A stretch of 32,000 nucleotides of DNA from Cyclobacteriaceae bacterium (GCA_044228465.1 JBGAUU010000016.1:1-32000); one strand, 5' to 3'; positions 42 to 21,058 are shown, counted from the first letter of the stretch. Numbers and translations: made by a program. Notes: generated from the letters alone by a model not told the origin.

Positions 42-1373
42 ATGACACAAAATGTAAAATCGCCAGACGAAGGTTTGAAGCGCGCCATAGGTCCTACCGC
101 ATTGGCAGCCAATGTTATCAACCTTACAATCGGAGCCGGCATCTTTGTTCTTCCCGCCAAAGTATACGAAAGCCTGGGGGCAGCAAGTATTTTAGCCTAC
201 CTGATTTGTGGCGTGCTCATATTTCTGGTGATGCTATGTTTTGCAGAAGTGGGTAGCCGTGTAACCCGAACGGGTGGTGCTTACGCGTATGTAGAAAGTG
301 CTTATGGCCCATTTTTCGGATTCATTACCAGCAATCTATATTGGTTTGGTTTTGGATTGATAAGTGATGCTGCAATTATCAACGCTATGGCCGAGATGTT
401 ATCTACCGTTTATGCGCCTTTTCATCATCCTGTTGTGAAAGGATTATTTTTTACTATTAGCTTTCTGCTTTTAGGATACATTAATGTGCGAGGGGTAAAA
501 TATGGTTCGCAACTAGTTGAGTTCATAACATTTGCCAAATTACTCCCACTGGTTTTGCTGATTCTTGTAGGCTGGACTACGGTTGAAACTAACAATCTGA
601 ATGTAAGCGGTTGGCCGGGATGGACTAATCTTGGTGAGGCATCCCTAATTTTATTTTTTGCTTATGGCGGTGCCGAAGCTTCTCTTACTGTAAGCGGTGA
701 AATAAAAAATCCGGGTAGAACAGTTCCTATTGGTATTTTATGGGGAATTTTCATTGTTGTCATTATCTATGCCACTATTCATTTAATCACACAAGGAATA
801 CTTGGATCAAATCTGTTGGAGTATAAAGACGCTCCCCTATCACAAGCTGCCAGTTTAATTTTTGGACCGGCCGGTGTTATTTTGATTTTAGTTTGTGCTG
901 CCATTTCTATTTGGGGTGCTATTAGTGGGGATATACTCACCATGCCTCGATTTCTTTTTGCAGCTTCGCAAGACAAACTTTTTCCCTCTTTTCTTTCCAA
1001 GATACATCCTCGCTATGCCACGCCTTATTGGTCGATAATTATATATGCAGGACTAGGTTTACTGTTCTCACTTTTAGGTGGATTTAAACAACTCGCCCTT
1101 CTATCTAGCGCTGCCATTTTAATAACTTATCTGGCAGTAATATTATCTGCAATTAAACTTCGCATCGATGGCCTTAAAAGTAACGGGTTTGTAATTCCCG
1201 GAGGATTAACAATTCACTTCATCGCATTATCTACCATCATTTGGTTTCTTACGCATTTGTCAGCTAATGAACTCTGGTCTATTGCCGGGGCCCTTACATT
1301 CTTCTCGGTAGTGTATTATTTTCGCAAAAAATATTTGATTCAATCAGAAATCAGCGCTACGCAGTCTGAATAA
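42..1373 (+). CDS. APC-superfamily amino acid permease
   Basis: 443-aa ORF with ATG at 42. It is hydrophobic along its whole length (about 12 TM segments). The N-terminal GAGIFVLPA motif is typical of amino acid/polyamine/organocation transporters. Confidence 0.85.
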   Translation: MTQNVKSPDEGLKRAIGPTALAANVINLTIGAGIFVLPAKVYESLGAASILAYLICGVLIFLVMLCFAEVGSRVTRTGGAYAYVESAYGPFFGFITSNLYWFGFGLISDAAIINAMAEMLSTVYAPFHHPVVKGLFFTISFLLLGYINVRGVKYGSQLVEFITFAKLLPLVLLILVGWTTVETNNLNVSGWPGWTNLGEASLILFFAYGGAEASLTVSGEIKNPGRTVPIGILWGIFIVVIIYATIHLITQGILGSNLLEYKDAPLSQAASLIFGPAGVILILVCAAISIWGAISGDILTMPRFLFAASQDKLFPSFLSKIHPRYATPYWSIIIYAGLGLLFSLLGGFKQLALLSSAAILITYLAVILSAIKLRIDGLKSNGFVIPGGLTIHFIALSTIIWFLTHLSANELWSIAGALTFFSVVYYFRKKYLIQSEISATQSE

Positions 1374-3171: not shown

Positions 3172-3246
3172 TCTAAAATTTTCAATTCCTATTACTCAAA
3201 AACACCTTTGCGAGTGTCGGAAATTTTAAACCCAACCAAATTTTCT

Positions 3247-6200
3247 ATGAAAAAACTACTACTAATGAATGGGCGAAGGCTTCTACTTTGTTGCCTTATG
3301 GCTGCATGTAGTCTGGCTGCATGGGCACAAAGCCCAACTGTAAAAGGCAAGGTAACCGATTCGCAAACCAATGAAGGATTGCCGGGCGTTAACGTGTTGA
3401 TAAAAGGAACCACCAACGGTACTACAACCGATGCTGACGGAAATTATTCCATCACACTTAGCGGAGGAAATGTTATCTCATTTTCATTCATCGGCTATAA
3501 ATCGGTGGATGTTAATGCGGAAAATCAAACTACCATTGATGTAAAACTTCAATCTGACATTACATCGCTGGAGGAAGTGGTGGTGGTAGGTTATGGCACA
3601 CAAAAGAAAAGTGATGTAACCGGAGCAATTTCTTCTACCAAAGGCGAAGAGCTTAGAAAATTTGCAACCAACTCTCCTGCCGATGCATTACAGGGGCAAG
3701 TAGCCGGAGTAATGATTCGCAGAAATAGCGGCAGTGCCACAGCAGGTGTTGATATTACCATACGTGGTATGCGAGGATGGGGAAATAACTTTCCTCTGGT
3801 GATCATTGATGGAATTCAGGGTAACATAAACAATGTGAACCCAGAAGACATTCAATCTATTGAAGTGCTGAAAGATGCAGCTGCTGCTTCTATTTATGGC
3901 TCAACGGCTGCCAATGGAGTAATTCTGATTACAACTAAAAAAGCAAAGGCAGGAGAAATAAAGATTGATTTCACTGCCTATGCTGGTGCCGATCAAATTT
4001 CTAAAAAACTTCAATTCATGGACAAGGATCAGTGGCTTAAAATGGCTCGGGCAGTAGCCCCTACTAATGCCAGTAACCCCACCCCCAATTTTTTAGCACC
4101 TAATCAATCCTATGCAAATACCAATTGGTTTGACGAAACCTACAAAGGGGATGGTGCCTTTCAAAATTATAACATCGCTTTAAGCGGAGCTACCGACCAT
4201 TTAACCTATTTGATTTCCGGTGGTATGACCAATCGTAATTCAGTGATTCTCACTGAAGGCAGAGAGCGAAAAAATGCGCGACTGAAGCTTGGTGTTAAAC
4301 AAGGTATTTTTTCTGCCGATGCAAACATTTCATACCAAATTACAAATGACAAATATTTTCAGGGAAATCTGTTTAATGTGTATGAGGCAGCGCCTATTGT
4401 TCCTCTTTATGATCCAACAACTACCTCAGGATTTGGATATCGAAAAGCTAATTGGAGTGATTTGCCGGATGTGGTCAATCCTATTGGAGCTAACAAATAC
4501 ACCAAGTCAACATTTAGAAACGATTACATCACTACCAATTTGCAAACATCACTTGAGCCCATGAAGGGTCTTAAGTTGACTGGCCGTGTGGGTATTGAGC
4601 AATATTTCGATTATAGCTTTTACCATCAGCGCCCGTTCCGCGGCCAGTACAAAGATTCTGTGCGCTTCCATACGGTAAGCGAAACGTATGCTAAAACGGT
4701 TACATCAGTGTATGAGGGATTTGCTACTTATCAGAAGCAAGTCGATAGACACAATTTTGATGCAATGATCGGAGCAGCACTTCAAAACTATACCTATAGC
4801 ACTACCTATGCAGCAGTAGAAGGTCGCGACAATGGCACACCACCAAAACCTGTCGGGTTTATTGACCCGAATTTTGAAACACTGAATGCCGGCAATGGAG
4901 GTATTTACAGTGCCAGCGGCTATAACATTGAATCCAATCGCATCTCCTACTTCGGTAGAATAAACTACAACTACGACAATAAATATTTTGCACAAGTTTC
5001 TATAAGACGCGATGCTTCCTCTCGCTTTGGACCCGCCAAGCGCGTAGGAGTATTTCCTTCCGTGGCGTTGGGTTGGACGATTACTGAAGAAAGTTTCTTT
5101 CAAGTGCCAGTTATCTCCAGTTTAAAATTGCGCGCCAGCTATGGTGAATTAGGAAGCGAAAGCAATTTGGGGACATACGATTGGCAAGTGAACACACAAG
5201 GTGCGGGTGCTTATCCGTTCGGAACCACCGAGGCACAACGTGCTGCTACCACTTTCAGGAAGTTGGAAAATGTTAATTTGGGATGGGAAACTTCCATAAC
5301 GACCAACGTAGGCTTGGATTTCGGTTTGGTTAAAAACAGAGTGACTGGTTCTGTTAATTACTATTCTCGCACTACTCAAGATTTAATTATTGATCCAAGC
5401 CTTCCTCCATCTACTGGTGGTGACGCTCCAAAATCTAATTTGGGTGATGTTAAAAATACAGGATTTGAAATTGAAACAAACTACAAAACCAATTTGGGCC
5501 CTGTAGCATTTACAGTAGGCGCCACTTATTCATATAATACAAATATTGTCACGCGCACCAACATTCCTACTTTTGAATTGCTAGGCGATGGCACTATTCC
5601 GAACCGAGACAACGGGCCCGCCAACCGCACCAGACTAAATTATCCGGTGGGAGGATTTTTCCTTTATCAAGCAGAAGGCATATTTAAAACGAATGCTGAA
5701 TTGGCCGGCTACCCGCATCAGGCAGCACCCGCTGTCGATCCTGCAAATGCTGCGCAGGTAGGCGATGTAAAATTCAAAGATGTAAATAAGGATGGCGTAT
5801 TAGACAATTCAGATCTGGTATATGCCGGAAGCGGAATTCCATCGAATCTTTATGGTTTGAATCTGGGCGCACAATACAAAGGATTTGATGTGAGCGTAAC
5901 ACTCTATGCAGCCACCGGATTTAAAATATACAACGCTGTTCGCCAAGCTTACTCGACATTATCGGGTTATAGCAATCAATTGGCATCAGCAAGCAACTTC
6001 TATACCGCTACAAATACGGCAACGGATATACCGCGTGCTGTGTGGAGTGACCCCAACAGAAATACAACTCGCAACTCAATACGTTTTCTTGAAGATGGAG
6101 ATTATCTAAGAGTGCGCAACATTCAGATTGGTTACACCCTTCCAAAAGAGCTTGTGAAAAAAGTAGGACTTAACCAATTTAGAGTTTACGTCAGTGGGCA

Positions 6201-6330
6201 GAACCTGTTTACAGTTACATCTTATACTGGTGTAGATCCGGAAGTTGGTGGAACACGAAATGCAGGAACTGATTTTTCCAGAACTCCCTATGTGAAGACA
6301 TTCTTAGCAGGTGTACAAATGTCATTTTAA
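3247..6330 (+). CDS. susC: SusC/RagA-family TonB-dependent outer-membrane transporter
   Basis: The ATG at 3247 gives the signal peptide MKKLLLMNGRRLLLCCLMAACSLAAWAQ. This is followed by a carboxypeptidase-regulatory-like domain (KGKVTDSQTNEGLPGVNVLIKGTTNGTTTDADGNYS) and a plug region (VVVVGYGTQKKSDVTGAISS). The beta-barrel ends in a terminal F, and the gene sits immediately upstream of susD. Confidence 0.9.
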   Translation: MKKLLLMNGRRLLLCCLMAACSLAAWAQSPTVKGKVTDSQTNEGLPGVNVLIKGTTNGTTTDADGNYSITLSGGNVISFSFIGYKSVDVNAENQTTIDVKLQSDITSLEEVVVVGYGTQKKSDVTGAISSTKGEELRKFATNSPADALQGQVAGVMIRRNSGSATAGVDITIRGMRGWGNNFPLVIIDGIQGNINNVNPEDIQSIEVLKDAAAASIYGSTAANGVILITTKKAKAGEIKIDFTAYAGADQISKKLQFMDKDQWLKMARAVAPTNASNPTPNFLAPNQSYANTNWFDETYKGDGAFQNYNIALSGATDHLTYLISGGMTNRNSVILTEGRERKNARLKLGVKQGIFSADANISYQITNDKYFQGNLFNVYEAAPIVPLYDPTTTSGFGYRKANWSDLPDVVNPIGANKYTKSTFRNDYITTNLQTSLEPMKGLKLTGRVGIEQYFDYSFYHQRPFRGQYKDSVRFHTVSETYAKTVTSVYEGFATYQKQVDRHNFDAMIGAALQNYTYSTTYAAVEGRDNGTPPKPVGFIDPNFETLNAGNGGIYSASGYNIESNRISYFGRINYNYDNKYFAQVSIRRDASSRFGPAKRVGVFPSVALGWTITEESFFQVPVISSLKLRASYGELGSESNLGTYDWQVNTQGAGAYPFGTTEAQRAATTFRKLENVNLGWETSITTNVGLDFGLVKNRVTGSVNYYSRTTQDLIIDPSLPPSTGGDAPKSNLGDVKNTGFEIETNYKTNLGPVAFTVGATYSYNTNIVTRTNIPTFELLGDGTIPNRDNGPANRTRLNYPVGGFFLYQAEGIFKTNAELAGYPHQAAPAVDPANAAQVGDVKFKDVNKDGVLDNSDLVYAGSGIPSNLYGLNLGAQYKGFDVSVTLYAATGFKIYNAVRQAYSTLSGYSNQLASASNFYTATNTATDIPRAVWSDPNRNTTRNSIRFLEDGDYLRVRNIQIGYTLPKELVKKVGLNQFRVYVSGQNLFTVTSYTGVDPEVGGTRNAGTDFSRTPYVKTFLAGVQMSF

Positions 6331-6348
6331 CTATTCAGAAGCAACACT

Positions 6349-7869
6349 ATGAAAAAAACAATAACATATATATGCATTGCTGTTATAGCAGTGGCATGTA
6401 ATGAAGATGCCTTACTCAACCAAAATCCAAAAGATCAAGCAACCTCGGCACAGTTTTGGAAAAACGAAGCCGATGCTCAAACTGCACTGATTCATCCTTA
6501 CAGCAAATTGCGTATTGGCGACCGCTGGGAGCACGTGGAAGCCGGATGGACAGTGGAAAACTTCCGTGACGATTTTACACAACCTGGCGCGGACGCGTCT
6601 AACTATCCTGATTGGACGGATGTATCGAGCTTAACGGTAAAATCAAATAATAGTCAGATTTGGGTTTACTGGGCAAGCAACTATGAAGGTATTTATGGAA
6701 GCAACCTAGTAATGGAGAATGTAAGCAAGATGACTACAGCACAAATAAGTGATGATGCTAAGAAAAAGATCATTGCACAAGCAAGATTTCTTCGCGCCTA
6801 TTTTCATCTGCGCTTAATTAAAGTTTGGGATCGAATTATTTTGCGCGACAAAACACCGAAAGATGCTACTACAGCCAGCACTCCCCTTTCCGATAGAGTT
6901 ACCGTTTTGACATTCCTCGAAAATGAATTCAAGCAAGCAGCCATCGATTTACCAACTACATGGCCAAACGAAGATTTTGCCCGTATTACTAAAGGTGCAG
7001 CATTAGGCTTTTGGGGAACTACTCTCTTATACCAAAAGAAATATGCGGAAGCTGCAACGGCACTTAAACAGGTAATCGATTTAGGAGTTTACCAATTGGA
7101 TACAAATTTCTTGTCGTTGTTTGATGGTACCAATGAGAATAACAAAGAAGTTATCCTTCAGGTAAAATTTACCAATGCTACCTTAAACGGTGCCACTTTC
7201 CGCTATATGTCAATTGGTGGTTTGCAGGCCACTGAAATTGGTGGATGGGAAAGTTGGATACCAACACAAAAATTATTGAATGAAGTAAAGCAAGAAGGTA
7301 AAACATCAACCGTAGCCGGTAAATACGATGCGCGCGCTTATGCTACTTTATTTTTTAACGATGCAACTGTAGACGTATTTGGTCAGACCTACGCCAGTGT
7401 ATTTGGTGCCGGATCAAATAAAATATCTTTTAGAAAATTCCTGTATTCAGGGGGAACAAATGGAGCGCAATTCGGACTATCATCATACATCGATCAACCG
7501 ATATTGCGCTATGCTGATATTTTATTGATGCGAGCGGAGGCCTTGAATGAAACGGGTGATGCGGCAGGAGCCCTCGCTTTGATAAATGAAGTTCGCGATA
7601 AACATGGAAAGATGCCACCCCTTGCAACCAACTTATCTAAAGCACAAACTTTTGCGGCACTCGTACACGAGCGCGCCATGGAGTTTGCGATGGAAGGTAG
7701 TAGATATTACGATCTCGTGCGTTGGGGTGATGCAATGCTGGAAACAGAAATAAAAAACAGTGGCAAAGCAGGTGTTAGTTCGTTCACTGCCGCCAACAAA
7801 TTCATTCTGATACCACAAAATGAAGTCGAGACAAACCCGAATCTGGGGCCTTTGGTAAACGGAAGATAA
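6349..7869 (+). CDS. susD: SusD/RagB-family outer-membrane lipoprotein
   Basis: Lipoprotein signal MKKTITYICIAVIAVAC. Contains the typical SusD segment ILRYADILLMRAEALNETGD. It starts 18 nt after susC. Confidence 0.9.
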   Translation: MKKTITYICIAVIAVACNEDALLNQNPKDQATSAQFWKNEADAQTALIHPYSKLRIGDRWEHVEAGWTVENFRDDFTQPGADASNYPDWTDVSSLTVKSNNSQIWVYWASNYEGIYGSNLVMENVSKMTTAQISDDAKKKIIAQARFLRAYFHLRLIKVWDRIILRDKTPKDATTASTPLSDRVTVLTFLENEFKQAAIDLPTTWPNEDFARITKGAALGFWGTTLLYQKKYAEAATALKQVIDLGVYQLDTNFLSLFDGTNENNKEVILQVKFTNATLNGATFRYMSIGGLQATEIGGWESWIPTQKLLNEVKQEGKTSTVAGKYDARAYATLFFNDATVDVFGQTYASVFGAGSNKISFRKFLYSGGTNGAQFGLSSYIDQPILRYADILLMRAEALNETGDAAGALALINEVRDKHGKMPPLATNLSKAQTFAALVHERAMEFAMEGSRYYDLVRWGDAMLETEIKNSGKAGVSSFTAANKFILIPQNEVETNPNLGPLVNGR

Positions 7870-7884
7870 TAATTAAAAAAGCAT

Positions 7885-7920
7885 AGAAGGGGGCACACTG
7901 TTTGTGCCCTTCTTCTATCA
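7885..7920 (+). terminator. Hairpin with T-rich tail after susD
   Basis: agaagggggcac / gtgcccttct pair (about 10 bp with a 2-nt bulge) around a 7-nt loop, followed by tcttctatcattt. Confidence 0.45.
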
Positions 7921-7960
7921 TTTATACCCACATTCGCTCACTGATCTAAATAAATTTAGA

Positions 7961-10486
7961 ATGTTGCGATTATTTTTTACCCTGATGGTGTTAGGAACTT
8001 GTGCATGTCGCAACAGCTTCGCGCAAGCTATTACTCCATGTCGTGTGGGCAAACCGGAGGAGAATACAGCCACAAAGCAGTTAGAAGAATTTACCAAACA
8101 ATTTGCCGATAGTATTGGCAGAATGCAAAGTCAAACCAATGCAAGAAGCGCTGGTATTAAGTACACGATACCTGTTGTATTTCATGTATTTGGTACTGAC
8201 TTTGAAGGAAAAAGAGTAACACCCGAAATTATTCGCAATTCACTTAACCAAGTGAATGATGATTTTAATGGAAGAAATGATGATTATTCAGCTATTGACC
8301 CTCTCTTTGATCCTATCAAGAGCACAATGGACATCGAATTTAAGTTAGCACAAATAGACCCTTCCGGTAAACCGACTACCGGTATGATTTTTTACCCGAA
8401 TACACAAGGCGTAAAAGGCTTCGGGGAGAAAACTGCGCACGATGCAGAAATTCAAAAATATGCGTGGGATAATTATAAGTATTGCAATGTATACATCATG
8501 CTAAAACTATACGATACTGATGATACAAGTCAATCAGGAGTAGCATGGTACCCTACCTCATTTGAGATGTCATCTAATTTATTTCGAATTGTGTACAACG
8601 GGAAATTTTTAACGGGTAACACAGATAAAGAATTTTCATCCACACTCTCTCACGAATTTGGGCATTATCTCAACCTCTTTCACACATTTGAAGGTTTGTG
8701 CACGGCTAAGAATGATGAAGTAGATGATACTCCGGCTGAAAATGAAATGGAAGCATCGGCTTGTCGTGGAATAAAAAATTGTTTTGGCAACTTTATCAAT
8801 GGGGAAAACTACATGGGATACACGGGTTCTAAAAACCGTTGCTACAAAATGTTTACCAAAGGACAAGTGATCAGGATGCTTGCAGCGCTCCAATACCCTA
8901 CCCGAAAGCAGCTGTGGCAAGCAGCCAATTTGGTTGCTACTGGCGTTGCGGGTTCAAGGGTAAATTTTGTGAGTCTAGAATTCAATGAGCATGTTCTTAA
9001 TGATGGAACAATCGATGAGCCTATTGATTTATTGGCCAGCGAGAGCGTTACATTCTCCACAGTTAGTCAATTTTTAGAGCCCAGTGTAGATTTCATCGTC
9101 AACAATTTGCCGGCTGGATTAACAGCGCGCATACAAATTATAAACTCACAGCAAGCAAAATTTTATCTTGCCGGAATAGCCACATCACACCGTCAATCCA
9201 ATTCGATTACAAACTTATCCATTGAATTCAAACCATCCGCATTTGCAACCGGATTCTCAGGTCTTTCCAATCCCATCATTACCGATATAAAGGTCAATTG
9301 GATCGATCCATATACAGCAATTTCCTGTGTACCTTCTGTTAGCGATAATAACTTTATCCGCATCACTCGGTTTCGATTAAATACAACGGATAAATCATCG
9401 CTGCAAGAGCGCTACTCAAACAATACAGTAAGCATAACCAGTTTGGCACAAGGCTGCAGTTACCCGCTTACTATCAATGTAAATACGGCCGGTGCGCCAT
9501 TGGAATATCAAATAATAAAGGTTTGGGTAGATTGGAATGGAAACTATGTTTTAACAGAAGATGAAATTGTCATCAGTAAAGTATTTGAATCTAACCCGTT
9601 TAAAAAAGAGAAAGAATTTACTTTTACTCTACGTGTACCCTTTTATGCTTTTGCCGGTAAAAAGAGTATTCGAATTTTGGCACAAAGTAAAGGTTCAACT
9701 GAAAATTGGTTGCCTTGTGGTGATTTTTCAAAAGGCGAAATAGAAGATTACTACGCCAATGTTGTTGAGTATTGTGTCCCCAATAAAACATCAGAACAAG
9801 GGGCATTTATCTCAAATGTCAGCTTACAAGACATCAACAATTCAACACAAGCAGGCAGTTACACGAATTATCTAGATGATAACCTTGTAGCTACGGTGGC
9901 GCAAGGAACCAAGAGCACATTATCAGCTACCATCTCAAAAGGCAACGCTGCATGGAATGATAATCAGCGAGTTCAAGCATGGATAGATTGGAATCTCGAT
10001 GGAGTTTTTTCTGATTCGGAGTTAATAGTGACAAAAAATTTTGCTTTCACTGAGGCCGCAGGCCAAACTACTTATTTAGTCAATGAAGTCCTCACCATTC
10101 CGGCAAACGTTGTTATTGGTTCAACTACTTTTCTGAGAATTATTAATCAAAGCATTGCCACAACTGCAACCAACTCAGCTTGCTCTGCCATTGCCGATGG
10201 CGAAATTGAAGATTATGGCATTAAAGTGGACGCTCCAATTACAGAAGTAGAAGCTACTATTGAAACAATCAATGTTTATCCTAATCCGTCAGTTGATGGT
10301 GAGTACCACACAAGTCAACCTGTTATCATACTTTCTATCATTCATCAAAGCGGTGTGGAATTAGAAAAAACGAGTTTAATTGAAACTAGATCAATCAATC
10401 TAACAGGGCAGCCTCCCGGTGTTTACCTTGTAAAGGCTGCTAACCAAAACCATTCAATAACTTTTAAAATTATAAAACAAGAATAG
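7961..10486 (+). CDS. Secreted zinc metalloprotease, MEROPS M43 (cytophagalysin/pappalysin type), with two GEVED-like domains and a T9SS C-terminal sorting domain
   Basis: The ATG at 7961 gives the signal peptide MLRLFFTLMVLGTCA. Zinc site HEFGHYLNLFHTF (HExxHxxxxxH). GEIEDY motifs occur twice in repeated roughly 150-aa modules. The C-terminus (INVYPNPSVDGEY...GVYLVKAANQNHSITFKIIKQE) resembles a Por secretion tail. Confidence 0.8.
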   Translation: MLRLFFTLMVLGTCACRNSFAQAITPCRVGKPEENTATKQLEEFTKQFADSIGRMQSQTNARSAGIKYTIPVVFHVFGTDFEGKRVTPEIIRNSLNQVNDDFNGRNDDYSAIDPLFDPIKSTMDIEFKLAQIDPSGKPTTGMIFYPNTQGVKGFGEKTAHDAEIQKYAWDNYKYCNVYIMLKLYDTDDTSQSGVAWYPTSFEMSSNLFRIVYNGKFLTGNTDKEFSSTLSHEFGHYLNLFHTFEGLCTAKNDEVDDTPAENEMEASACRGIKNCFGNFINGENYMGYTGSKNRCYKMFTKGQVIRMLAALQYPTRKQLWQAANLVATGVAGSRVNFVSLEFNEHVLNDGTIDEPIDLLASESVTFSTVSQFLEPSVDFIVNNLPAGLTARIQIINSQQAKFYLAGIATSHRQSNSITNLSIEFKPSAFATGFSGLSNPIITDIKVNWIDPYTAISCVPSVSDNNFIRITRFRLNTTDKSSLQERYSNNTVSITSLAQGCSYPLTINVNTAGAPLEYQIIKVWVDWNGNYVLTEDEIVISKVFESNPFKKEKEFTFTLRVPFYAFAGKKSIRILAQSKGSTENWLPCGDFSKGEIEDYYANVVEYCVPNKTSEQGAFISNVSLQDINNSTQAGSYTNYLDDNLVATVAQGTKSTLSATISKGNAAWNDNQRVQAWIDWNLDGVFSDSELIVTKNFAFTEAAGQTTYLVNEVLTIPANVVIGSTTFLRIINQSIATTATNSACSAIADGEIEDYGIKVDAPITEVEATIETINVYPNPSVDGEYHTSQPVIILSIIHQSGVELEKTSLIETRSINLTGQPPGVYLVKAANQNHSITFKIIKQE

Positions 10487-10549
10487 CAGAAATTAAGAAG
10501 AACAATGGGCGGTGGAAATAGAATTTAGGGTTAAGGCTCATTACTTACG

Positions 10550-10580
10550 AATCACCCTCTCCACTAAGGGTGATTTTTCT
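10550..10580 (+). terminator. Rho-independent terminator after the M43 protease gene
   Basis: Perfect 8-bp stem aatcaccc/gggtgatt with a 10-nt loop, followed by tttct. Confidence 0.65.
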
Positions 10581-10605
10581 TAGATTGCCATGATTAAAAC
10601 GTACT

Positions 10606-13600
10606 ATGCAAAGCGACTCAACCCTAAACATGACCTTCAGTAGAATAGAACTGATTGATTTTCTTTTAAGGAATTATGGTATCCATGCCACGCTGGAAGA
10701 GTTACCTGGTGAATTAGACTTAAACTTTTTAGTTACAACCACAAGTTCACGAAAATTCATTCTGAAAATTGCCAACGAGAGTGAGATTCTGGAAAACCTG
10801 CAGCTTCAAAATGCAGTAATTCGGCATTTATCTCAACACCAAAATGATCTTTCTATCTCAAAGTTAATTAAAGCAGTAAATGGCAAAGAGATTTTGACTA
10901 TAACAAAAAAAAACGGGAAGAAAAGATACGTGCGATTGCTCTCGTGGGTAGAAGGACGAACATTGGCTAGCGTAAGTCCGCACTCTCCCCTTCTACTAGA
11001 AAGGCTTGGTGAAATGTGTGGCAAACTATGTGCAGCGCTATCTAATTTTGATCATGCGGCTGCTCACCGTTTTATGAAGTGGGATCCCACGCAAGCTGCA
11101 TGGACAAAGGAACATCTAACAAAATTTACTGACGAACGAAGAGAGTTGATTGACTATTTCTATACACTTTTTGAAACCGTAGCTGTTCCGGCATTTCCGC
11201 TTCTACGCATGAGTGTTAATTACAACGATGCGAATGACTACAATGTGTTGGTAAACCACGATGTTCACGATCCACGTGTGCCGGGTGTTATTGATTTTGG
11301 TGATGTAGTTTATACACATACAGTCAACGAACTTGCCATTGTAATATCATATGCTATTATGGGCAAAGCGAACCCACTGGAAGCGGCTTGTCATATAGTG
11401 CGTGGTTTTCATAATGTCTTTCCCCTGACTGATAAGGAATTGGAGGTTTTATTCACGTTGGTATGCACGCGCTTACTCATTAGCGTTACATGCGCAGAGT
11501 TAAACCGGCTCAACCATCCGGAAAATGAATACCTACAAATCAGCGATCGGGCGGCATGGCAAACTTTGAAGAAATTGAAAAGCATTTCTCCATCTCTTGC
11601 TTACTGCATGTTCCGGAATACCAGCGGACTTGAGCCTAATCCAAAGGCAACCTTATTCAATTCATGGGCAAGCGGCCACTATAAAGCAACGCATTTCCCC
11701 ATATCTAATAGCGCCAAAGTAATTTGGCTTGACCTAAGTGTAGGTAGTTTAGATTTAGGTACTACGGACACCATTTCGAGTCCAACAAAACTAGACGAAC
11801 GTATTTCATCATTAATTCAGCAAAGCGGTGCCTCTTTAGCTTTCGGAAAATATGCCGAAGCTCGGGCCATTTATGCTACACCCGCATATAAAGTGGTTAC
11901 CAATGATGGGTGTTCATGGCGAACCATACACCTTGGATTAGACTTTTTCGCCAACGCAGGAACTATTGTCTGTGCTGCATTGGATGGTGTAGTTCACAGT
12001 GTTGCAAACAATACAAATGATCGGGATTATGGCCCTACTATTATTCTAAAACATGTCGCATCTGAATCGCTTACTTTTTACACGTTGTATGGTCATCTTA
12101 ACCAAGAATGCCTAAGTGACTTGCACGTAGGCAAGAAAATAAAAGGAGGTCAACCAATTGCCAAACTAGGTTATCGGCATGAAAATGGGAATTGGACACC
12201 ACACCTACACTTTCAGGTAATGCTGGATACACTGGGAAATCATGGCGACTTTCCTGGGGTTTGCATCCCTGAAGATGCCACCGTTTGGAAAAGCATCTGT
12301 CCTGATCCGTGGATTTTATTTACAGGAAAATGTAGCCCTGAAGAAAAGAAATTAACACGCGATGAGATCGTCAGCTTTCGCAAGCAACATGTTGGTAAAA
12401 ATCTCAGCATCTCCTATAAACAACCCATTAAAATGGTGCGGGGTGCAGGAGCATTTTTAATAGATGATGTAGGCAGAAGATATTTAGATACTGTAAACAA
12501 CGTAGCGCACGTTGGCCATGAACATCCACGAGTAGTAGCTGTTGGGCAACGACAAATGGCAGTGCTCAATACTAACACACGCTACTTGCACGAAAATCTG
12601 GTGAAGTTTGTTGACGAATTACTCGCCACCATGCCGCCTGAACTAAACGTAGCTTTTGTAGTCAATTCTGGAAGCGAAGCCAATGAATTGGCGCTGCGCA
12701 TTGCAAAGACATATACCAATCAGAAAGACATGATCGTGTCGCAGGTTGGTTACCATGGAAACACCAATGGCTGCATCGATATCAGTTCCTATAAGTTTGA
12801 TGGCAAAGGCGGAAAAGGCAAACCCGATCATGTGCATGTAATACCAATACCTGACGTGTATCGAGGACTCTATCGTGCAGGCGTAGCTGACGCAGGTAGC
12901 AAATATGCTGCGCATGTCAAACAATCCATCGAAGCTTTGCAAAATCAAAACAAGAAGCCGGCTGCTTTCATCTTTGAATCTGTAATAAGCTGCGGAGGTC
13001 AGGTAGAATTACCTAATAATTTTCTGAAAGAAGCATATGCCTATATCCGTGCAGCCGGAGGCGTGTGTGTGGCAGATGAAGTACAAACCGGATGTGGTCG
13101 TGCAGGAGATCACTTCTGGGCGTTTCAGCAACACGAGGTAGTGCCGGATATTGTTACAATCGGCAAACCAATTGGAAATGGGCATCCATTGGGGGTTGTG
13201 GTGACCACCCAAGCGCTAGCCGATGCTTTTAAAAATGGCATGGAGTACTTCAATACATTTGGTGGTAACCCGGTGTCTTGTGCAATTGGGTTGGAAGTGC
13301 TACGTGTAATAAAAGACGAGAAGTTACAACAGAATGCGAAAGTGGTAGGTAACTATTTGAAAAATGGGTTGAATACATTAATGAATGAATTTGAAATTAT
13401 CGGTGATGTGCGGGGCCCCGGACTTTTTATCGGATTTGAATTGGTAAAAAATCGCGACAGCAAAGAACCGGCTACAGCGCAGGCCAATTACTTCGCCAAC
13501 CGCATGCGCGACAAAGGAATATTGATGAGCACGGATGGTCCGTTTGATAATGTGCTGAAGATTAAACCACCCGTTATTTTCTCTCAGGCCAACGCAGACT

Positions 13601-13656
13601 TTCTTTTGGAGAACATTCAAGAGGTATTGCGCGAAGATGTTATGAAGATAAGTTAA
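10606..13656 (+). CDS. Tri-domain fusion: hydroxylysine-kinase-like (APH-fold) phosphotransferase + peptidase M23 domain + class-III PLP enzyme of the AGXT2L (phospho-lyase) type
   Basis: There is no signal peptide. The N-terminal roughly 335 aa carry kinase motifs NDANDYN (DxxxxN) and IDFGD, and resemble human HYKK as I recall it ([27 protein letters not shown]). The middle region has the M23 zinc motifs HLGLD (11929-11943) and HLH (12202-12210). The C-terminal roughly 430 aa have the PLP-lysine motif [16 protein letters not shown] (K at 13165-13167), close to the ETNPPL/PHYKPL motif DIVTMGKPMGNGHP. Confidence 0.8.
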
Positions 13657-13687
13657 CACTAGCTCACAATGTGCAACCACTTTGATC

Positions 13688-13813
13688 ACAGCACGAGTGT
13701 GGAAAGCGTGCTCAGCCAGGGATAGTAGCGGAAAGCCCGCAGTGATGCGCCTCGCAGCACGAGGACTTGAAGCGAATAGCCCGTTGCCACTGCGCTTCGC
13801 GTGGCAGGCTGCA
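13688..13813. other. GC-rich cluster of short hairpins and an imperfect internal repeat in an intergenic region (possible ncRNA or REP-like element)
   Basis: About 60 percent GC by hand count, against AT-rich flanks. The 9-mer cagcacgag occurs at 13689 and 13755. Stems seen: agcacg/cgtgct, gcgg/ccgc, cctcg/cgagg and ttgccac/gtggcag. No convincing ORF is present. Confidence 0.3.
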
Positions 13814-13868
13814 AAAAAAGTATTCAATTGTTTGAGGGCTTTAAAGCACCTTTGACATCTAACTTTAA

Positions 13869-15818
<1,950 letters not shown>

Positions 15819-17855
15819 ATGATACAGTACTCTTTTTGGCTGCATGTTCATAGCTTACATGTCAGCACCAGGCTATCCGCTGCAAGCCCACTCTCCCCTT
15901 ACACCATATTACCAGCTTGCGGTTTTGGGGGACGTTCCGTTTCTTTTCCTTACCGAATTAACAACTCCAGAGCAGAGGTTGATGTTTCAGTAGAATATGG
16001 CGGAGTTAAGCAGATCTTATTATTCATTTTTCTTTTCATTCAGATTAGCGCTCAATCCTTCGCACAAGATACCATACGGCTGAGCACATTTGGCTTGAAG
16101 CCAAATAGCCGAGTCAACGCAGTGTCATTCATAAACAAAGCGCTGGCGCTGACAAAAAGCAAAAGCACCGTATTGCTCTTTGAAAAGGGTCGCTACGATT
16201 TTTGGCCTGATGAAGCCACCCGTAAAAATTATTATGAATCGAACACTACCATTGTCAATCCGCGTGTGTGCGGCATTTTCATTTTCAAACAGCATAACCT
16301 CACACTCGATGGCGCGGGTGCAGATTTTATATTTCATAGTAAAATGCAGCCCGTAACCATTGATAGTAGCGAAAATATTACGATCAAAAACTTTTCGGTT
16401 GATTGGGAAATACCATTTGGTGCCGAAGCTGAAATTACTGACGTAACCGAAACTTATTTTGACTTAGTCATTAATGAGCAACATCACCCCTATGAGATCG
16501 AAAACAATAAACTCTATTTCATAGGTGAAGGCTGGAAAGAAATGTGGGGCGGTGTGAAGTGGAACGACCCAATTGAATTTGAACGCGAAACTTTCATGGT
16601 GACACCGGAAACTGATGACTACCTGCTGGGTGACGACTGGGAGCAAAAGTACACAGCCCAAGAAATCTCAAACGGCGTAGTTAGAATATTTTATGCAAAC
16701 AATAAACGACTGAAGAAAGGTAATTACCTCAACCTGCGTATAGGCGCAAGAGATCATGCCGGAGTCTTTATGGCTGATAGCAAGAATATTCAATTGCAAA
16801 ACATCAACATGCACAGTAATTCAGGTATGAACTTTTTGGCTCAATTCACCGAAAATATTTCTTATAAAAATGTGAACTGCATTCCTAGTCGCAAAAGAAA
16901 GGTAGTTGCCGGCCATGATGACGGTTTGCATCATACCAACTGCAAGGGGATGATTTTAGTAGATGGCTGTTCTTTTAGAGGCATTATGGACGATGCCTTT
17001 AACGCACATAACACCTATGTGCTAGTGAAAGAAAAACTAAGCACGAATAAATTGCTCTGTCAATTTAGACATCATCAAAGTTTGGGATTCGTGTGGGGGC
17101 GCATAGGCGAGCAAGTAAGTTTTATAAAAACACAATCGATGAACTCGGTTGGTAGTGCCACCATCAAATCATATAAAATTCTAAAACCGGAGCTTTTTGA
17201 AATTGAGTTTGACTCTCCCATCCCACCCGCTATTACTGGTGACGATGCACTCGAAAACATCACATGGAATCCTTCGGTAGAAATTAAGAATTGCCAGTTT
17301 GGACAACATCGAGCACGAGCTATTTTAGCATCCACCCCTGAAAAGGTATGGATACACAATAATGTTTTCGAAAGTAGCGGTGCCGCCATCTGCATTCCGG
17401 GAGACGCAAACCATTGGTATGAAGGCGGAGCAGCTAAGGAGGTAATTATCAGCCACAACAAATTCATTAACTGCAACACTTCTGCCTATCAGTTTAGTGA
17501 AGCCATTATCTGCATACAACCGGGCATTCCAGCTTTTAATGCAACCCTTCCCCGGTTTCATAAAAACATACGCATAACCAACAACGAGTTTGAAGTCTTT
17601 GATGCAGCGGTTATCTACGCCTTTAGTGTGGAAGGATTGGTTATCAATAGCAACACAATCAAACGGACCACTCAATTTACCCCGCGGAATTCAAATACCC
17701 CAATGTTTAAAATAGACGCATGTAAGAAGGTTGAGATTATAGAAAACAACTTTGATCTCAAATTACTCAACACAAAAATTCAGCTTATCCGTATGCATTT
17801 AGCCGATTTGAAATTCGATAAGAACCAAAATGCAAAGGTGATAAACAATAAATAA
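15819..17855 (+). CDS. Right-handed parallel beta-helix glycoside hydrolase, GH110-like (alpha-1,3-galactosidase family) candidate; start uncertain
   Basis: Long ORF with repeated beta-helix-like segments (NITIKNFSVDW, NIQLQNINMHSNSG, VEIKNCQF, IISHNKFINC, IRITNNEFEV, LVINSNTI). The N-terminal RYDFWPD...YYESNTT region matches my recollection of GH110. The only canonical start is the ATG at 15819, abutting the upstream TAA. A signal-peptide-like KQILLFIFLFIQISAQSFAQ begins only at codon 64. Confidence 0.6.
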   Translation: MIQYSFWLHVHSLHVSTRLSAASPLSPYTILPACGFGGRSVSFPYRINNSRAEVDVSVEYGGVKQILLFIFLFIQISAQSFAQDTIRLSTFGLKPNSRVNAVSFINKALALTKSKSTVLLFEKGRYDFWPDEATRKNYYESNTTIVNPRVCGIFIFKQHNLTLDGAGADFIFHSKMQPVTIDSSENITIKNFSVDWEIPFGAEAEITDVTETYFDLVINEQHHPYEIENNKLYFIGEGWKEMWGGVKWNDPIEFERETFMVTPETDDYLLGDDWEQKYTAQEISNGVVRIFYANNKRLKKGNYLNLRIGARDHAGVFMADSKNIQLQNINMHSNSGMNFLAQFTENISYKNVNCIPSRKRKVVAGHDDGLHHTNCKGMILVDGCSFRGIMDDAFNAHNTYVLVKEKLSTNKLLCQFRHHQSLGFVWGRIGEQVSFIKTQSMNSVGSATIKSYKILKPELFEIEFDSPIPPAITGDDALENITWNPSVEIKNCQFGQHRARAILASTPEKVWIHNNVFESSGAAICIPGDANHWYEGGAAKEVIISHNKFINCNTSAYQFSEAIICIQPGIPAFNATLPRFHKNIRITNNEFEVFDAAVIYAFSVEGLVINSNTIKRTTQFTPRNSNTPMFKIDACKKVEIIENNFDLKLLNTKIQLIRMHLADLKFDKNQNAKVINNK

Positions 17856-17860
17856 ATTAG

Positions 17861-21058
<3,198 letters not shown>

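What the first reader, a model, noticed from the sequence alone, without database searches (positions are those of the whole stretch)
10606..13656. Single polypeptide joining a hydroxylysine-kinase-like domain to an AGXT2L-type PLP phospho-lyase-like domain
The N-terminal APH-fold domain retains the catalytic DxxxxN (NDANDYN) and the metal-binding IDFGD. It shares several blocks with human HYKK as I remember that sequence. The C-terminal class-III PLP domain has the lysine motif [16 protein letters not shown], which is nearly the motif of ETNPPL/PHYKPL rather than of typical GABA or ornithine transaminases. Fusing the kinase to the enzyme that consumes its phosphorylated product would channel a two-step deamination of an amino alcohol. 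To my recollection, bacterial fusions or adjacency of this kind helped identify the mammalian enzymes. I am not aware that the bacterial proteins, their substrate or their physiological role have been characterised. The substrate could be hydroxylysine or ethanolamine, and this cannot be decided by eye.
Basis: partly seen in the sequence, partly recalled or inferred. Interest (0 to 1): 0.75.

Follow-up and report, generated by a model that had tools for sequence, protein, structure and literature searches.

The report
Fused hydroxylysine-type kinase and phospho-lyase enzyme
This bacterial gene fuses a hydroxylysine-kinase-like domain, a peptidase-like domain and a phospho-lyase-like domain; the fusion type is already known, but its recurring neighbours suggest it lets bacteria consume the sugar-decorated hydroxylysine of collagen.

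Summary
ORF 10606-13656 (+) encodes a 1016-aa cytoplasmic protein with three domains, not two: an APH-fold kinase, a Peptidase_M23 domain and a class-III PLP domain. The kinase is a full-length homologue of animal hydroxylysine kinase (29% identity, E 3e-40). The PLP domain matches the two solved phospho-lyases far better than any transaminase (E 1e-137 and 1e-97 versus 1e-56 or weaker).

The architecture is not new. It passes NCBIfam NF004799, occurs in hundreds of bacterial species, and (from memory) guided the 2012 discovery of the mammalian enzymes.

Lyase sequence cannot decide the substrate. It is 50% identical to ETNPPL and 48% to PHYKPL, and lies outside both.

Genomic context can. In an unbiased survey of 80 genomes, the families most often next to the fusion are a GH2 beta-galactosidase and a YgjK-type GH63 alpha-glucosidase. 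They often form a tight GH63-fusion-GH2 operon with SusC/SusD. Hydroxyproline-catabolism, prolyl-peptidase and galactose genes are often nearby. Collagen hydroxylysine carries Glc-alpha1,2-Gal-beta.

I therefore favour hydroxylysine as the substrate, within a collagen glycopeptide salvage locus. This is inferred, not shown. The M23 role is unresolved: its zinc site is invariant in this clade but lost in some distant relatives.

The parts
10606..13656 (+). Whole ORF: 1016-aa tri-domain protein (kinase, M23, PLP phospho-lyase). No signal peptide, so cytoplasmic.
   Evidence: (NF004799 at 1226 bits, cut-off 1128)
10606..11640 (+). HYKK-like APH-fold kinase domain (aa 1-345). Catalytic loop D208..N213 at nt 11215-11253; metal-binding IDFGD at nt 11287-11307.
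   Evidence: 29% identity to Papio HYKK over 343 aa, E 3e-40; D208/N213/D230 invariant in 225 fusions
11641..11895 (+). Conserved linker or pre-M23 segment (aa 346-430), modelled with high confidence as part of the compact protein.
   Evidence: invariant W354, D376, G385, G414, E418, R420, Y423; pLDDT about 90
11896..12285 (+). Peptidase_M23 domain (aa 431-560) with an intact zinc and catalytic set: H442/D446 (nt 11923-11949), H497 (nt 12082-12102), H533/H535 (nt 12196-12219).
   Evidence: (intact in 79/79 genome loci and 117/118 close homologues; degenerate in 7 of 28 distant representatives)
12358..13653 (+). Class-III PLP domain of the ETNPPL/PHYKPL phospho-lyase clade (aa 585-1016). PLP-lysine K854 lies in [16 protein letters not shown] (nt 13147-13194); D824 at nt 13063-13089.
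13875..15818 (+). GH63 YgjK-type alpha-glucosidase with a signal peptide. Proposed to remove the alpha-1,2-glucose from Glc-Gal-hydroxylysine.
   Evidence: E 3e-90 to E. coli YgjK, including 3w7w; 3W7W is YgjK bound to Glc-alpha-1,2-Gal; recurrent neighbour of the fusion
17864..21058 (+). GH2 LacZ-type beta-galactosidase with a signal peptide. Proposed to remove the beta-galactose from hydroxylysine O5.
   Evidence: (NF052611 at 1065 bits, cut-off 999); the most frequent neighbour of the fusion
15819..17855 (+). GH110 alpha-1,3-galactosidase homologue packed between GH63 and GH2. Present only in this window's version of the locus; role unclear.
   Evidence: E 9e-101 to 9i4f; no counterpart in the 80 loci
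3208..7869 (+). SusC-like TonB-dependent transporter (3208-6330) and SusD-like lipoprotein (6349-7869), the outer-membrane import pair of the locus.
   Evidence: the same families are next to the fusion in 9 other loci and in L084
1397..3076 (+). TPR protein with a C-terminal LuxR-like helix-turn-helix, a putative locus regulator. A homologue lies next to SusC in the Gelidibacter locus L038.
   Evidence: (cluster c56)
7904..10486 (+). Secreted M43 (ulilysin/mirolysin-type) metalloprotease with GEVED domains and a weak (sub-threshold) match to a type IX secretion tail. Candidate extracellular protease of the locus, but not conserved in related loci.
   Evidence: no homologue in the 80 loci
42..1373 (+). 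APC-family amino-acid permease, a candidate inner-membrane importer for the amino acid. Weakly supported.
   Evidence: homologues in only 2 of 80 loci

Best explanation
The gene encodes a cytoplasmic three-domain enzyme that degrades a vicinal amino alcohol in two steps. The most likely substrate is 5-hydroxy-L-lysine.

Proposed mechanism:
1. The HYKK-like kinase domain phosphorylates the 5-hydroxyl using a nucleoside triphosphate.
2. The PLP domain forms an aldimine with the terminal amine and eliminates phosphate and ammonia. The product is 2-aminoadipate semialdehyde, which enters lysine catabolism.

Proposed role in this organism and many other Bacteroidota. The enzyme is the final step of a collagen glycopeptide salvage locus:
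1. Secreted proteases cut collagen.
2. SusC/SusD import the glycopeptides.
3. A periplasmic YgjK-type GH63 removes the alpha-1,2-glucose.
4. A GH2 beta-galactosidase removes the galactose from Glc-Gal-hydroxylysine, which frees the hydroxyl the kinase needs.
5. The amino acid is imported and destroyed by the fusion.

The M23 domain is at least a structural bridge between the two catalytic domains. In this clade it probably also binds zinc and may trim hydroxylysine-containing peptides.

Shown: domain identities, conserved catalytic residues, and the conserved neighbourhood. Inferred: the substrate, the reaction products, any channelling, and every role of M23.
For: Domains: Pfam and NCBIfam matches. 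The kinase is a full-length homologue of source-named HYKK (E 3e-40). No choline/ethanolamine-kinase Pfam match was reported.

Lyase: the PDB ranking puts ETNPPL at 1e-137 and the bacterial phospho-lyase 5g4i at 1e-97, with the best non-lyase at 1e-56. Foldseek TM is 0.93 to 6tor. The tree places it sister to animal ETNPPL plus PHYKPL.

Conservation: kinase D208/N213/D230 and lyase D824/K854 are invariant in 225 full-length fusions.

Context:
- Unbiased clustering of all ORFs in 80 species-level loci ranks GH2 (14), GH63 (12) and SusC/SusD (10 each) as the top co-located families.
- GH63-fusion-GH2 occurs as a tight same-strand unit in Chitinophagales and many Flavobacteriaceae. It also occurs in a fusion only about 39% identical, with gaps of 2 and 13 bp.
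- Gene order differs between lineages but the association persists.
- Further collagen-related genes lie in these loci: a Pyr2C/Pip2C reductase (379 bits, cut-off 322), a proline-racemase-family protein with the Cys/Thr pair typical of trans-3-hydroxyproline dehydratase, an M24 Xaa-Pro dipeptidase-like protein and an S28/S37 peptidase. A DAO + Pro_racemase + Aldedh + DHDPS set is present in L084.
- Galactose genes are also present: galactokinase (314 bits, cut-off 227), an aldose epimerase and an SSF symporter.

Chemistry: collagen hydroxylysine carries Glc-alpha1,2-Gal-beta (PMC8626586; PMC11442529). [quoted passage not shown] The window GH63 matches YgjK at E 3e-90.

Topology: GH63, GH2 and M43 carry export signals and the fusion does not.

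Structure: the AF2 model is compact and confident (pLDDT 87, pTM 0.87).
Against: - No biochemical data exist for any bacterial member that I could find.
- Only 14 of 47 loci with at least 4 kb on both flanks carry GH2 or GH63 (18 of 47 if the hydroxyproline genes are counted). Elsewhere the gene stands alone among unrelated neighbours.
- The lyase domain is marginally closer to ETNPPL (50%) than to PHYKPL (48%). Paralogue-discriminating positions split 5/5/2.
- The nearest bacterial solved relative, 5g4i, is described as a phospho-lyase; from memory it acts on phosphoethanolamine.
- This window's locus also holds a GH110 alpha-1,3-galactosidase homologue, which the Glc-Gal-Hyl model does not need. 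Its M43 protease and permease are not conserved in related loci.
- No aminoadipate-semialdehyde dehydrogenase was seen next to the fusion.
- The M23 zinc ligands are lost in 7 of 28 distant tri-domain representatives, including one inside a GH63-fusion-GH2 operon. Peptidase activity therefore cannot be essential to the pathway.
Confidence: 0.6

Rival explanations
1. It is a general amino-alcohol catabolic enzyme that acts on ethanolamine or 1-amino-2-propanol. The kinase makes the O-phosphate, and the lyase releases acetaldehyde or propionaldehyde, ammonia and phosphate. The glycosidase neighbours in some genomes are incidental.
For: - The lyase domain is slightly closer to ETNPPL than to PHYKPL (50% versus 48%).
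- The closest bacterial solved structure, 5g4i, is a phospho-lyase; from memory it acts on phosphoethanolamine.
- In most loci the gene has no collagen-related neighbours.
- The microcompartment aminopropanol kinase 6EF6 is among the fold matches of the kinase domain, though the model was weak.
- From memory, kinase plus phospho-lyase routes for ethanolamine and aminopropanol were described enzymologically in Pseudomonas and Erwinia in the 1970s.
Against: - The kinase is a full-length HYKK homologue (E 3e-40). It has no Pfam choline/ethanolamine-kinase match.
- The only recurrent neighbours across orders are GH63, GH2, SusC/SusD and hydroxyproline genes. An ethanolamine role does not explain these.
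- 6EF6 is only a remote fold match (TM about 0.5, 16% identity) and was not found by sequence.
Confidence: 0.22
2. The C-terminal domain is a genuine omega-transaminase, and the kinase and peptidase domains serve another purpose, such as regulation or an unrelated step.
For: Pfam and NCBIfam place it in Aminotran_3, with many transaminase families matching at E 1e-55 to 1e-76. Public annotation calls it an aminotransferase.
Against: - All those NCBIfam matches fall far below their cut-offs.
- The two solved phospho-lyases outscore every transaminase by more than 40 orders of magnitude.
- The tree places it with ETNPPL and PHYKPL.
- Fusion to a kinase that would make the phosphorylated substrate argues for elimination chemistry.
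Confidence: 0.05
3. The protein acts on hydroxylysine but has nothing to do with collagen. The GH63/GH2 neighbours target another Glc-Gal glycoconjugate, or a general galactoside, and the hydroxylysine comes from another source.
For: - This window's locus has an extra GH110 alpha-galactosidase homologue.
- E. coli also links GH2 (ebgA) with GH63 (ygjK) without any kinase or lyase.
- Many host organisms live in soil or water.
Against: - Hydroxyproline-catabolism and prolyl-peptidase genes co-occur in the same loci.
- Glc-alpha1,2-Gal-beta-hydroxylysine is the known glycan that joins all three activities.
Confidence: 0.1

Closest known systems
Animal hydroxylysine kinase (HYKK/AGPHD1) plus 5-phosphohydroxy-L-lysine phospho-lyase (PHYKPL/AGXT2L2)
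   Same: The same two protein families and presumably the same two-step chemistry. The kinase domain is 29% identical to HYKK over its full length. The lyase domain is 46-51% identical to 22 PHYKPL orthologues. The pathway is outlined in PMC5200902.
   Different: In animals these are two separate proteins with no M23 domain. Here they form one polypeptide. The bacterial lyase branches outside the animal ETNPPL/PHYKPL duplication, so it is not an orthologue of PHYKPL specifically.
Ethanolamine-phosphate phospho-lyase (human ETNPPL, PDB 6tor) and the bacterial phospho-lyase A1RDF1 (PDB 5g4i)
   Same: These are the best solved-structure matches: E 1e-137 and 1e-97, with Foldseek TM 0.93 and 0.91. 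The PLP-lysine motif is the same.
   Different: They are stand-alone enzymes. Their substrate is phosphoethanolamine (the molecule name for 6tor; from memory for 5g4i). The window protein's context points instead to hydroxylysine.
NCBIfam NF004799 (PRK06148) and NF004800 (PRK06149): bacterial tri-domain 'aminotransferase' proteins, the bi- and tri-functional bacterial homologues noted by Veiga-da-Cunha et al. 2012 (from memory)
   Same: The window protein is a member: 1226 bits against a cut-off of 1128, aligned end to end.
   Different: The family is named 'hypothetical protein' or 'aminotransferase', with no assigned substrate or pathway. The link to GH63, GH2 and SusC/SusD appeared in none of the papers I could search.
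Animal protein-glucosylgalactosylhydroxylysine glucosidase (PGGHG, GH65) and E. coli YgjK (GH63)
   Same: The proposed first step is the same reaction as PGGHG, removal of alpha-1,2-glucose from Glc-Gal-Hyl. The window GH63 is a YgjK homologue (E 3e-90), and YgjK binds Glc-alpha-1,2-Gal.
   Different: The glycoside hydrolase family differs from PGGHG (GH63, not GH65). YgjK's natural substrate is not established. Activity of these Bacteroidota enzymes on Glc-Gal-Hyl is untested.
Aminopropanol kinase plus class-III 'aminotransferase' phospho-lyase of the Rhodococcus/Mycobacterium microcompartment (RMM; PDB 6EF6)
   Same: A bacterial pairing of an APH-fold amino-alcohol kinase with a class-III PLP enzyme (PMC4207490). 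6EF6 is among the fold matches.
   Different: The genes are separate and lie in a microcompartment locus. The relation is remote: not detectable by sequence, TM about 0.5. There is no M23 domain and no glycosidases.
Peptidase M23 (LytM, lysostaphin) and degenerate LytM domains (EnvC)
   Same: The middle domain passes the Pfam threshold and keeps HxxxD, the catalytic His and HxH. Distant relatives carry degenerate versions, as EnvC does.
   Different: Classical M23 enzymes are exported cell-wall hydrolases. This domain is embedded in a cytoplasmic metabolic enzyme with no signal peptide.

Membership tests
HYKK-type APH-fold small-molecule kinase | Pfam APH (PF01636) match above the gathering score | tested here: met
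   74.2 bits against a cut-off of 23.2, residues 34-252
HYKK-type APH-fold small-molecule kinase | Catalytic loop D-x-x-x-x-N and the metal-binding Asp of the DFG-like motif | tested here: met
   D208, N213 and D230 are present, invariant in 225 fusions and shared with 19 HYKK orthologues
HYKK-type APH-fold small-molecule kinase | End-to-end homology with characterised animal hydroxylysine kinase | tested here: met
   29% identity over 343 aa, E 3e-40, to Papio HYKK. The HYKK identity of the comparison set was confirmed by source names, including HYKK_HUMAN.
HYKK-type APH-fold small-molecule kinase | Nucleotide-dependent phosphorylation of 5-hydroxy-L-lysine | not testable with these tools
   Needs an enzyme assay
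Class-III PLP phospho-lyases (ETNPPL/PHYKPL clade) | Aminotran_3 fold with the PLP-binding lysine and the pyridine-N aspartate | tested here: met
   266 bits. K854 and D824 are invariant in 225 fusions.
Class-III PLP phospho-lyases (ETNPPL/PHYKPL clade) | Closer to known phospho-lyases than to any transaminase, decarboxylase or racemase | tested here: met
   E 1e-137 (6tor) and 1e-97 (5g4i), against 1e-56 for the next best. Foldseek gives the same order. The NJ tree agrees.
Class-III PLP phospho-lyases (ETNPPL/PHYKPL clade) | Assignment to the PHYKPL or the ETNPPL specificity group | tested here: inconclusive
   50% versus 48% identity. It branches outside the animal duplication. Discriminating positions split 5 PHYKPL-like, 5 ETNPPL-like and 2 neither.
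Class-III PLP phospho-lyases (ETNPPL/PHYKPL clade) | 1,2-elimination of phosphate and ammonia without an amino acceptor | not testable with these tools
   Needs an enzyme assay
Peptidase family M23 | Pfam match above threshold with the HxxxD and HxH zinc ligands and the catalytic His | tested here: met
   61.5 bits against a cut-off of 28.7. H442, D446, H497, H533 and H535 are present and intact in 79/79 genome loci.
Peptidase family M23 | Exported enzyme acting on the cell wall | tested here: not met
   No signal peptide. The domain is embedded between cytoplasmic catalytic domains. It therefore has an M23 fold but is not a classical M23 cell-wall hydrolase.
Peptidase family M23 | Peptide-bond hydrolysis | not testable with these tools
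   Needs an assay. Loss of the zinc ligands in 7 of 28 distant tri-domain relatives shows activity is not universal in the family.
NCBIfam NF004799 (PRK06148) tri-domain family | Full-length score above the curated cut-off | tested here: met
   1226.5 bits against 1128, residues 10-1010 of 1016
Bacteroidota SusC/SusD-type utilisation locus | Adjacent SusC-like and SusD-like genes with glycoside hydrolases and a regulator on the same strand | tested here: met
   The window holds SusC, SusD, GH63, GH110, GH2 and a TPR-HTH protein on the + strand. Related loci have ECF sigma/FecR plus SusC/SusD beside GH63-fusion-GH2.
Bacteroidota SusC/SusD-type utilisation locus | Substrate-specific induction and requirement for growth on the substrate | not testable with these tools
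   Needs transcriptomics and genetics

The most novel reading that the evidence does not exclude
GH63-fusion-GH2, with SusC/SusD, hydroxyproline-catabolism genes and galactose genes, is a previously undescribed bacterial pathway. It would strip and catabolise the glucosyl-galactosyl-hydroxylysine of collagen. Animals largely excrete this structure (my recollection, not checked here). This reading would give YgjK-type GH63 enzymes a physiological substrate, as bacterial analogues of animal PGGHG. It would also assign a role to the widespread, uncharacterised bacterial HYKK-PHYKPL fusions. The M23 domain would be a scaffold that in most lineages also trims hydroxylysine peptides.
Probability: 0.5. 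Interest if true: 0.8.

Novelty: new member of a known kind. Interest (0 to 1): 0.6.

Why it matters
The fused protein is a member of a known but biochemically uncharacterised bacterial family, so the finding as stated is not new. What matters is the conserved neighbourhood.

- It gives these fusions a concrete, testable substrate and physiological role: salvage of glycosylated hydroxylysine from collagen by environmental and fish-associated Bacteroidota such as Tenacibaculum, Flagellimonas and Gelidibacter.
- It suggests a natural substrate class (Glc-alpha1,2-Gal-beta-R) for bacterial GH63 YgjK-type enzymes.
- It provides a natural test of whether fusion serves substrate channelling, because separate, bi-domain and tri-domain forms all exist.
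- If confirmed, it adds a missing step to how microbes recycle collagen, including its modified residues that resist ordinary proteolysis.

Tried and rejected
1. Reading Veiga-da-Cunha et al. 2012 (PMC3293546): not held. Its content is cited from memory only.
2. Ten literature searches: none of the hits I examined characterises the bacterial fusions or describes a bacterial Glc-Gal-Hyl utilisation locus. The library is limited, so absence is weak evidence.
3. Deciding the substrate from the lyase sequence: overall identity, a tree and paralogue-discriminating positions were all inconclusive. Only one ETNPPL sequence was available.
5. A kinase-only AF2 model built on HYKK orthologues was poor (pLDDT 59). 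Its PDB matches show only a generic APH fold.
6. The sequence search of the kinase domain against PDB found nothing.
7. The promoter and terminator scan gave counts equal to shuffled sequence. It is not suited to Bacteroidota promoters.
8. A batch Pfam scan of 80 same-strand neighbours found no further recurrent partner beyond the Pro_racemase and OCD families. In particular there was no aminoadipate-semialdehyde dehydrogenase.
9. The contexts of six other divergent members (P0213, P0185, P0149, P0168, P0200, P0161) were uninformative.
10. I considered that the E. coli YgjI permease might be an orthologue of the window permease. Rejected: only a 61-residue weak match.
11. I considered the M43 protease a conserved part of the system. 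Rejected: no homologue in the 80 loci.
Full report
**1. The observation**

Pfam finds three domains, each well above its gathering score:
- APH, residues 34-252.
- Peptidase_M23, residues 441-540.
- Aminotran_3, residues 607-1008.

The quoted motifs are all present: NDANDYN (D208...N213), IDFGD (229-233) and [16 protein letters not shown] (848-863, with K854 as the PLP lysine). The protein has three, and the middle one is not a degenerate linker.

**2. The kinase domain**

A sequence search of residues 1-380 against PDB found nothing, so I needed real HYKK sequences.

I used my remembered human HYKK sequence only as a probe. It proved 100% identical to a database protein whose 90% cluster contains HYKK_HUMAN. 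It also retrieved more than 100 source-named 'hydroxylysine kinase' orthologues.

Against Papio HYKK, the window domain aligns over 343 residues at 29% identity, E 3e-40.

The family is large: 1081 cluster representatives at E 1e-30 or better. It occurs as stand-alone kinases, as direct kinase-lyase fusions without M23 (for example P0213, 788 aa) and as tri-domain proteins.

No Pfam choline/ethanolamine-kinase match was reported. A kinase-only AF2 model was poor (pLDDT 59). Its PDB matches are generic APH-fold small-molecule kinases, including the microcompartment aminopropanol kinase 6EF6, at TM about 0.5-0.6.

**3. The PLP domain**

- The best solved relatives are human ETNPPL (6tor, E 1e-137) and the bacterial phospho-lyase A1RDF1 (5g4i, 1e-97). 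The next, dialkylglycine decarboxylase, is at 1e-56, and every transaminase is weaker.
- Foldseek with the full-length model gives the same order, with TM 0.93 to 6tor.
- All NCBIfam transaminase models score far below their cut-offs.
- I retrieved real PHYKPL orthologues the same way as HYKK. I took human ETNPPL residues 8-433 from the PDB alignment.
- The window domain is 50% identical to ETNPPL and 46-51% to 22 PHYKPLs. The two animal paralogues are 68% identical to each other.
- In a neighbour-joining tree, the bacterial fusion domains form the sister clade of animal ETNPPL plus PHYKPL, with 5g4i outside.
- Twelve positions that separate PHYKPL from human ETNPPL split 5/5/2 in the bacterial sequences.

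So the domain belongs to the phospho-lyase clade.

**4. The M23 domain**

It aligns with genuine M23 peptidases (best E 2.7e-07). It keeps H442/D446 (HxxxD), H497 and H533/H535 (HxH).

Across 225 full-length fusions:
- The kinase and lyase catalytic residues are invariant in all of them.
- The M23 set is intact in 79/79 genome loci and 117/118 close homologues.
- Among 28 distant tri-domain representatives, 17 are intact, 4 lack only H497 and 7 have lost the zinc ligands.
- One of the degenerate proteins (P0158) sits in the same GH63-fusion-GH2 operon.

The domain is therefore always kept as a fold, and the AF2 model is compact (pTM 0.87). Its catalytic competence, however, is lineage-specific. 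Because bi-domain fusions and separate animal enzymes exist, M23 is an accessory. I could not determine what it does.

**5. How common, and is it known?**

The protein passes NCBIfam NF004799 (PRK06148, 'hypothetical protein') end to end. More than 2000 database proteins match. At least 590 of 600 pattern matches in species-representative genomes encode relatives.

The 80 best loci are full-length fusions from Cytophagales, Saprospiraceae, Chitinophagales and Flavobacteriaceae, and also from Blastocatellia, Chloroflexia and a Fischerbacteria genome.

From memory, Veiga-da-Cunha et al. (J Biol Chem 2012) used exactly such bi- and tri-functional bacterial proteins as the clue to HYKK, PHYKPL and ETNPPL. 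I could not read that paper. The architecture is not novel.

**6. Context in the window**

Nine genes lie on the + strand:
- An amino-acid permease.
- A TPR protein with a LuxR-like helix-turn-helix.
- SusC.
- SusD.
- An M43 ulilysin-type protease with a weak (sub-threshold) match to a type IX secretion tail.
- The fusion.
- A GH63 YgjK homologue (E 3e-90).
- A GH110 alpha-1,3-galactosidase homologue.
- A GH2 LacZ-type beta-galactosidase (above the NCBIfam cut-off).

GH63, GH2 and M43 have export signals and the fusion has none. A terminator-like hairpin follows the M43 gene. GH63, GH110 and GH2 are packed with gaps of 0 and 8 bp.

**7. Context elsewhere**

I called ORFs in all 80 loci and clustered them without prior labels. 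The families present in the most loci, after the fusion itself, were (counts include the window):

| Family | Loci |
|---|---|
| GH2 | 14 |
| GH63 | 12 |
| SusC | 10 |
| SusD | 10 |
| OCD/mu-crystallin-family reductase | 8 |
| Proline-racemase-family protein | 7 |

Details of the arrangements:
- In Chitinophagales (L018) and six Flavobacteriaceae genomes the arrangement is GH63-fusion-GH2 on one strand. It lies next to a divergent ECF-sigma/FecR/SusC/SusD unit.
- In L050, L069 and L080 (the last a Tenacibaculum MAG) the same core is joined by several further genes:
  - the reductase, which passes NF004793 as a Pyr2C/Pip2C reductase;
  - the racemase-family protein, whose active-site pair reads MCGH...DRSPTGSG. 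This Cys/Thr pair is typical of trans-3-hydroxy-L-proline dehydratase, which is also its best NCBIfam match;
  - an M24 Xaa-Pro dipeptidase-like protein;
  - an S28/S37 peptidase;
  - galactokinase;
  - an aldose epimerase;
  - a sodium:solute symporter.
- A fusion only about 39% identical (P0158) has GH63-fusion-GH2 with gaps of 2 and 13 bp. It also has the same sigma/anti-sigma/SusC/SusD unit and, next to it, DAO, Pro_racemase, Aldedh and DHDPS genes. From my own knowledge, that is the standard trans-4-hydroxyproline catabolic set.
- Gene order varies: fusion-GH63-GH110-GH2 here, fusion-GH63 in L042, and GH63-GH2-fusion-GH2 in L050. The association still persists.
- It is not universal. Of 47 loci with at least 4 kb on both sides, 14 have GH2 or GH63, and 18 have at least one of the four marker families.
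- A batch Pfam scan of 80 other same-strand neighbours found no further recurrent partner. Six other divergent members have unrelated neighbours.

**8. Interpretation**

Collagen hydroxylysine is O-glycosylated at the 5-hydroxyl with Glc-alpha1,2-Gal-beta (PMC8626586; PMC11442529). Animals remove the glucose with the GH65 enzyme PGGHG. [quoted passage not shown]

An alpha-glucosidase of that family, a beta-galactosidase and a hydroxylysine-type kinase/phospho-lyase are the three activities needed, in that order, to degrade Glc-Gal-Hyl. The sugars must come off before the kinase can reach the hydroxyl. Hydroxyproline genes and proline-specific peptidases in the same loci point to collagen as the source.

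I therefore favour hydroxylysine over ethanolamine, at about 0.6 against 0.2. The product would be 2-aminoadipate semialdehyde, as in the animal pathway (PMC5200902).

None of this is shown biochemically. The weak points are:
- The minority of loci with this context.
- The extra GH110 in this window.
- The non-conserved M43 protease and permease.
- The absence of a neighbouring semialdehyde dehydrogenase.

**9. Novelty and score**

The finding as written, a kinase/phospho-lyase fusion, is a new member of a known and already exploited kind.

I found no prior description of the conserved operon with GH63 and GH2 in the literature I could search. That library is incomplete. The operon turns an open question, what the bacterial fusions and the bacterial GH63 enzymes are for, into a set of simple assays.

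On that basis I score interest at 0.6. The locus-level hypothesis gets probability about 0.5 and would merit about 0.8 if true.

Noticed in passing
L081 (E. coli K-12 NC_000913.3, 3221466-3231239): ebgR-ebgA-ebgC-ygjI-ygjJ-ygjK lie on one strand: the 'evolved' GH2 beta-galactosidase (its natural substrate is, from memory, unknown), an APC-type transporter and the GH63 YgjK. This is a second, independent GH2 plus GH63 linkage. It suggests both may act on Glc-alpha1,2-Gal-beta-R compounds. No kinase or lyase is present there. The window permease is not specifically related to YgjI, and the window GH2 is only 29% identical to EbgA.
   Followed up: partly
window 15819-17855 (+): A GH110 alpha-1,3-galactosidase homologue (E 9e-101 to PDB 9i4f) is packed between GH63 and GH2, with gaps of 0 and 8 bp. 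It has no counterpart in the 80 related loci and is not explained by the Glc-Gal-Hyl model.
   Followed up: partly
window 7904-10486 (+): A secreted M43 metalloprotease of the ulilysin/mirolysin type, with two GEVED domains and a weak (sub-threshold) match to a type IX secretion tail. From memory, ulilysin-type enzymes cut on the N-terminal side of Lys/Arg, which would leave (hydroxy)lysine at peptide N-termini. It is not conserved next to the fusion elsewhere.
   Followed up: partly
window 10549-10581 (+): A 10-bp stem hairpin (-13.5 kcal/mol) followed by a T-run lies in the 119-bp gap after the M43 gene. It looks like a terminator, so the fusion gene probably has its own promoter. The consensus scan did not list it.
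   Followed up: partly
window 13657-13874, and the antisense ORF 13378..13827 (-): The 218-bp gap between the fusion and GH63 is unusually G+C-rich, with several inverted repeats. A 149-aa antisense ORF overlaps the end of the fusion gene and is probably spurious. The function of the spacer is unknown.
   Followed up: no
P0158, P0161, P0185, P0188, P0199, P0200, P0219 (distant tri-domain relatives); L084 8001-10985: In these lineages the middle domain is retained but the M23 zinc and catalytic histidines are replaced (for example HLHFQ becomes QVQLF). This parallels degenerate LytM domains such as EnvC. P0158 still sits in a GH63-fusion-GH2 operon.
   Followed up: yes
L084 14630-18985 (-): DAO-type oxidoreductase, proline-racemase-family, aldehyde dehydrogenase and DHDPS-family genes lie directly downstream of GH63-fusion-GH2. 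From my own knowledge this is the gene set of trans-4-hydroxyproline catabolism.
   Followed up: partly
window 28634-30325 (-): A sodium:solute symporter that clusters with the symporters lying directly after GH2 and before galactokinase in L050 and L080. Here it is 7.5 kb away on the opposite strand. It may be the galactose importer of the system.
   Followed up: no
L039 and L043 (labelled Blastocatellia and 'Heliobacteriaceae' MAGs), directly upstream of the fusion: An OCD/mu-crystallin-family reductase lies immediately upstream of the fusion on the same strand. It is preceded by a Ser/Thr protein kinase with TPR repeats, and no glycosidases are present. The reductase might act on the cyclic imine form of the lyase product, but this is speculation.
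   Followed up: no
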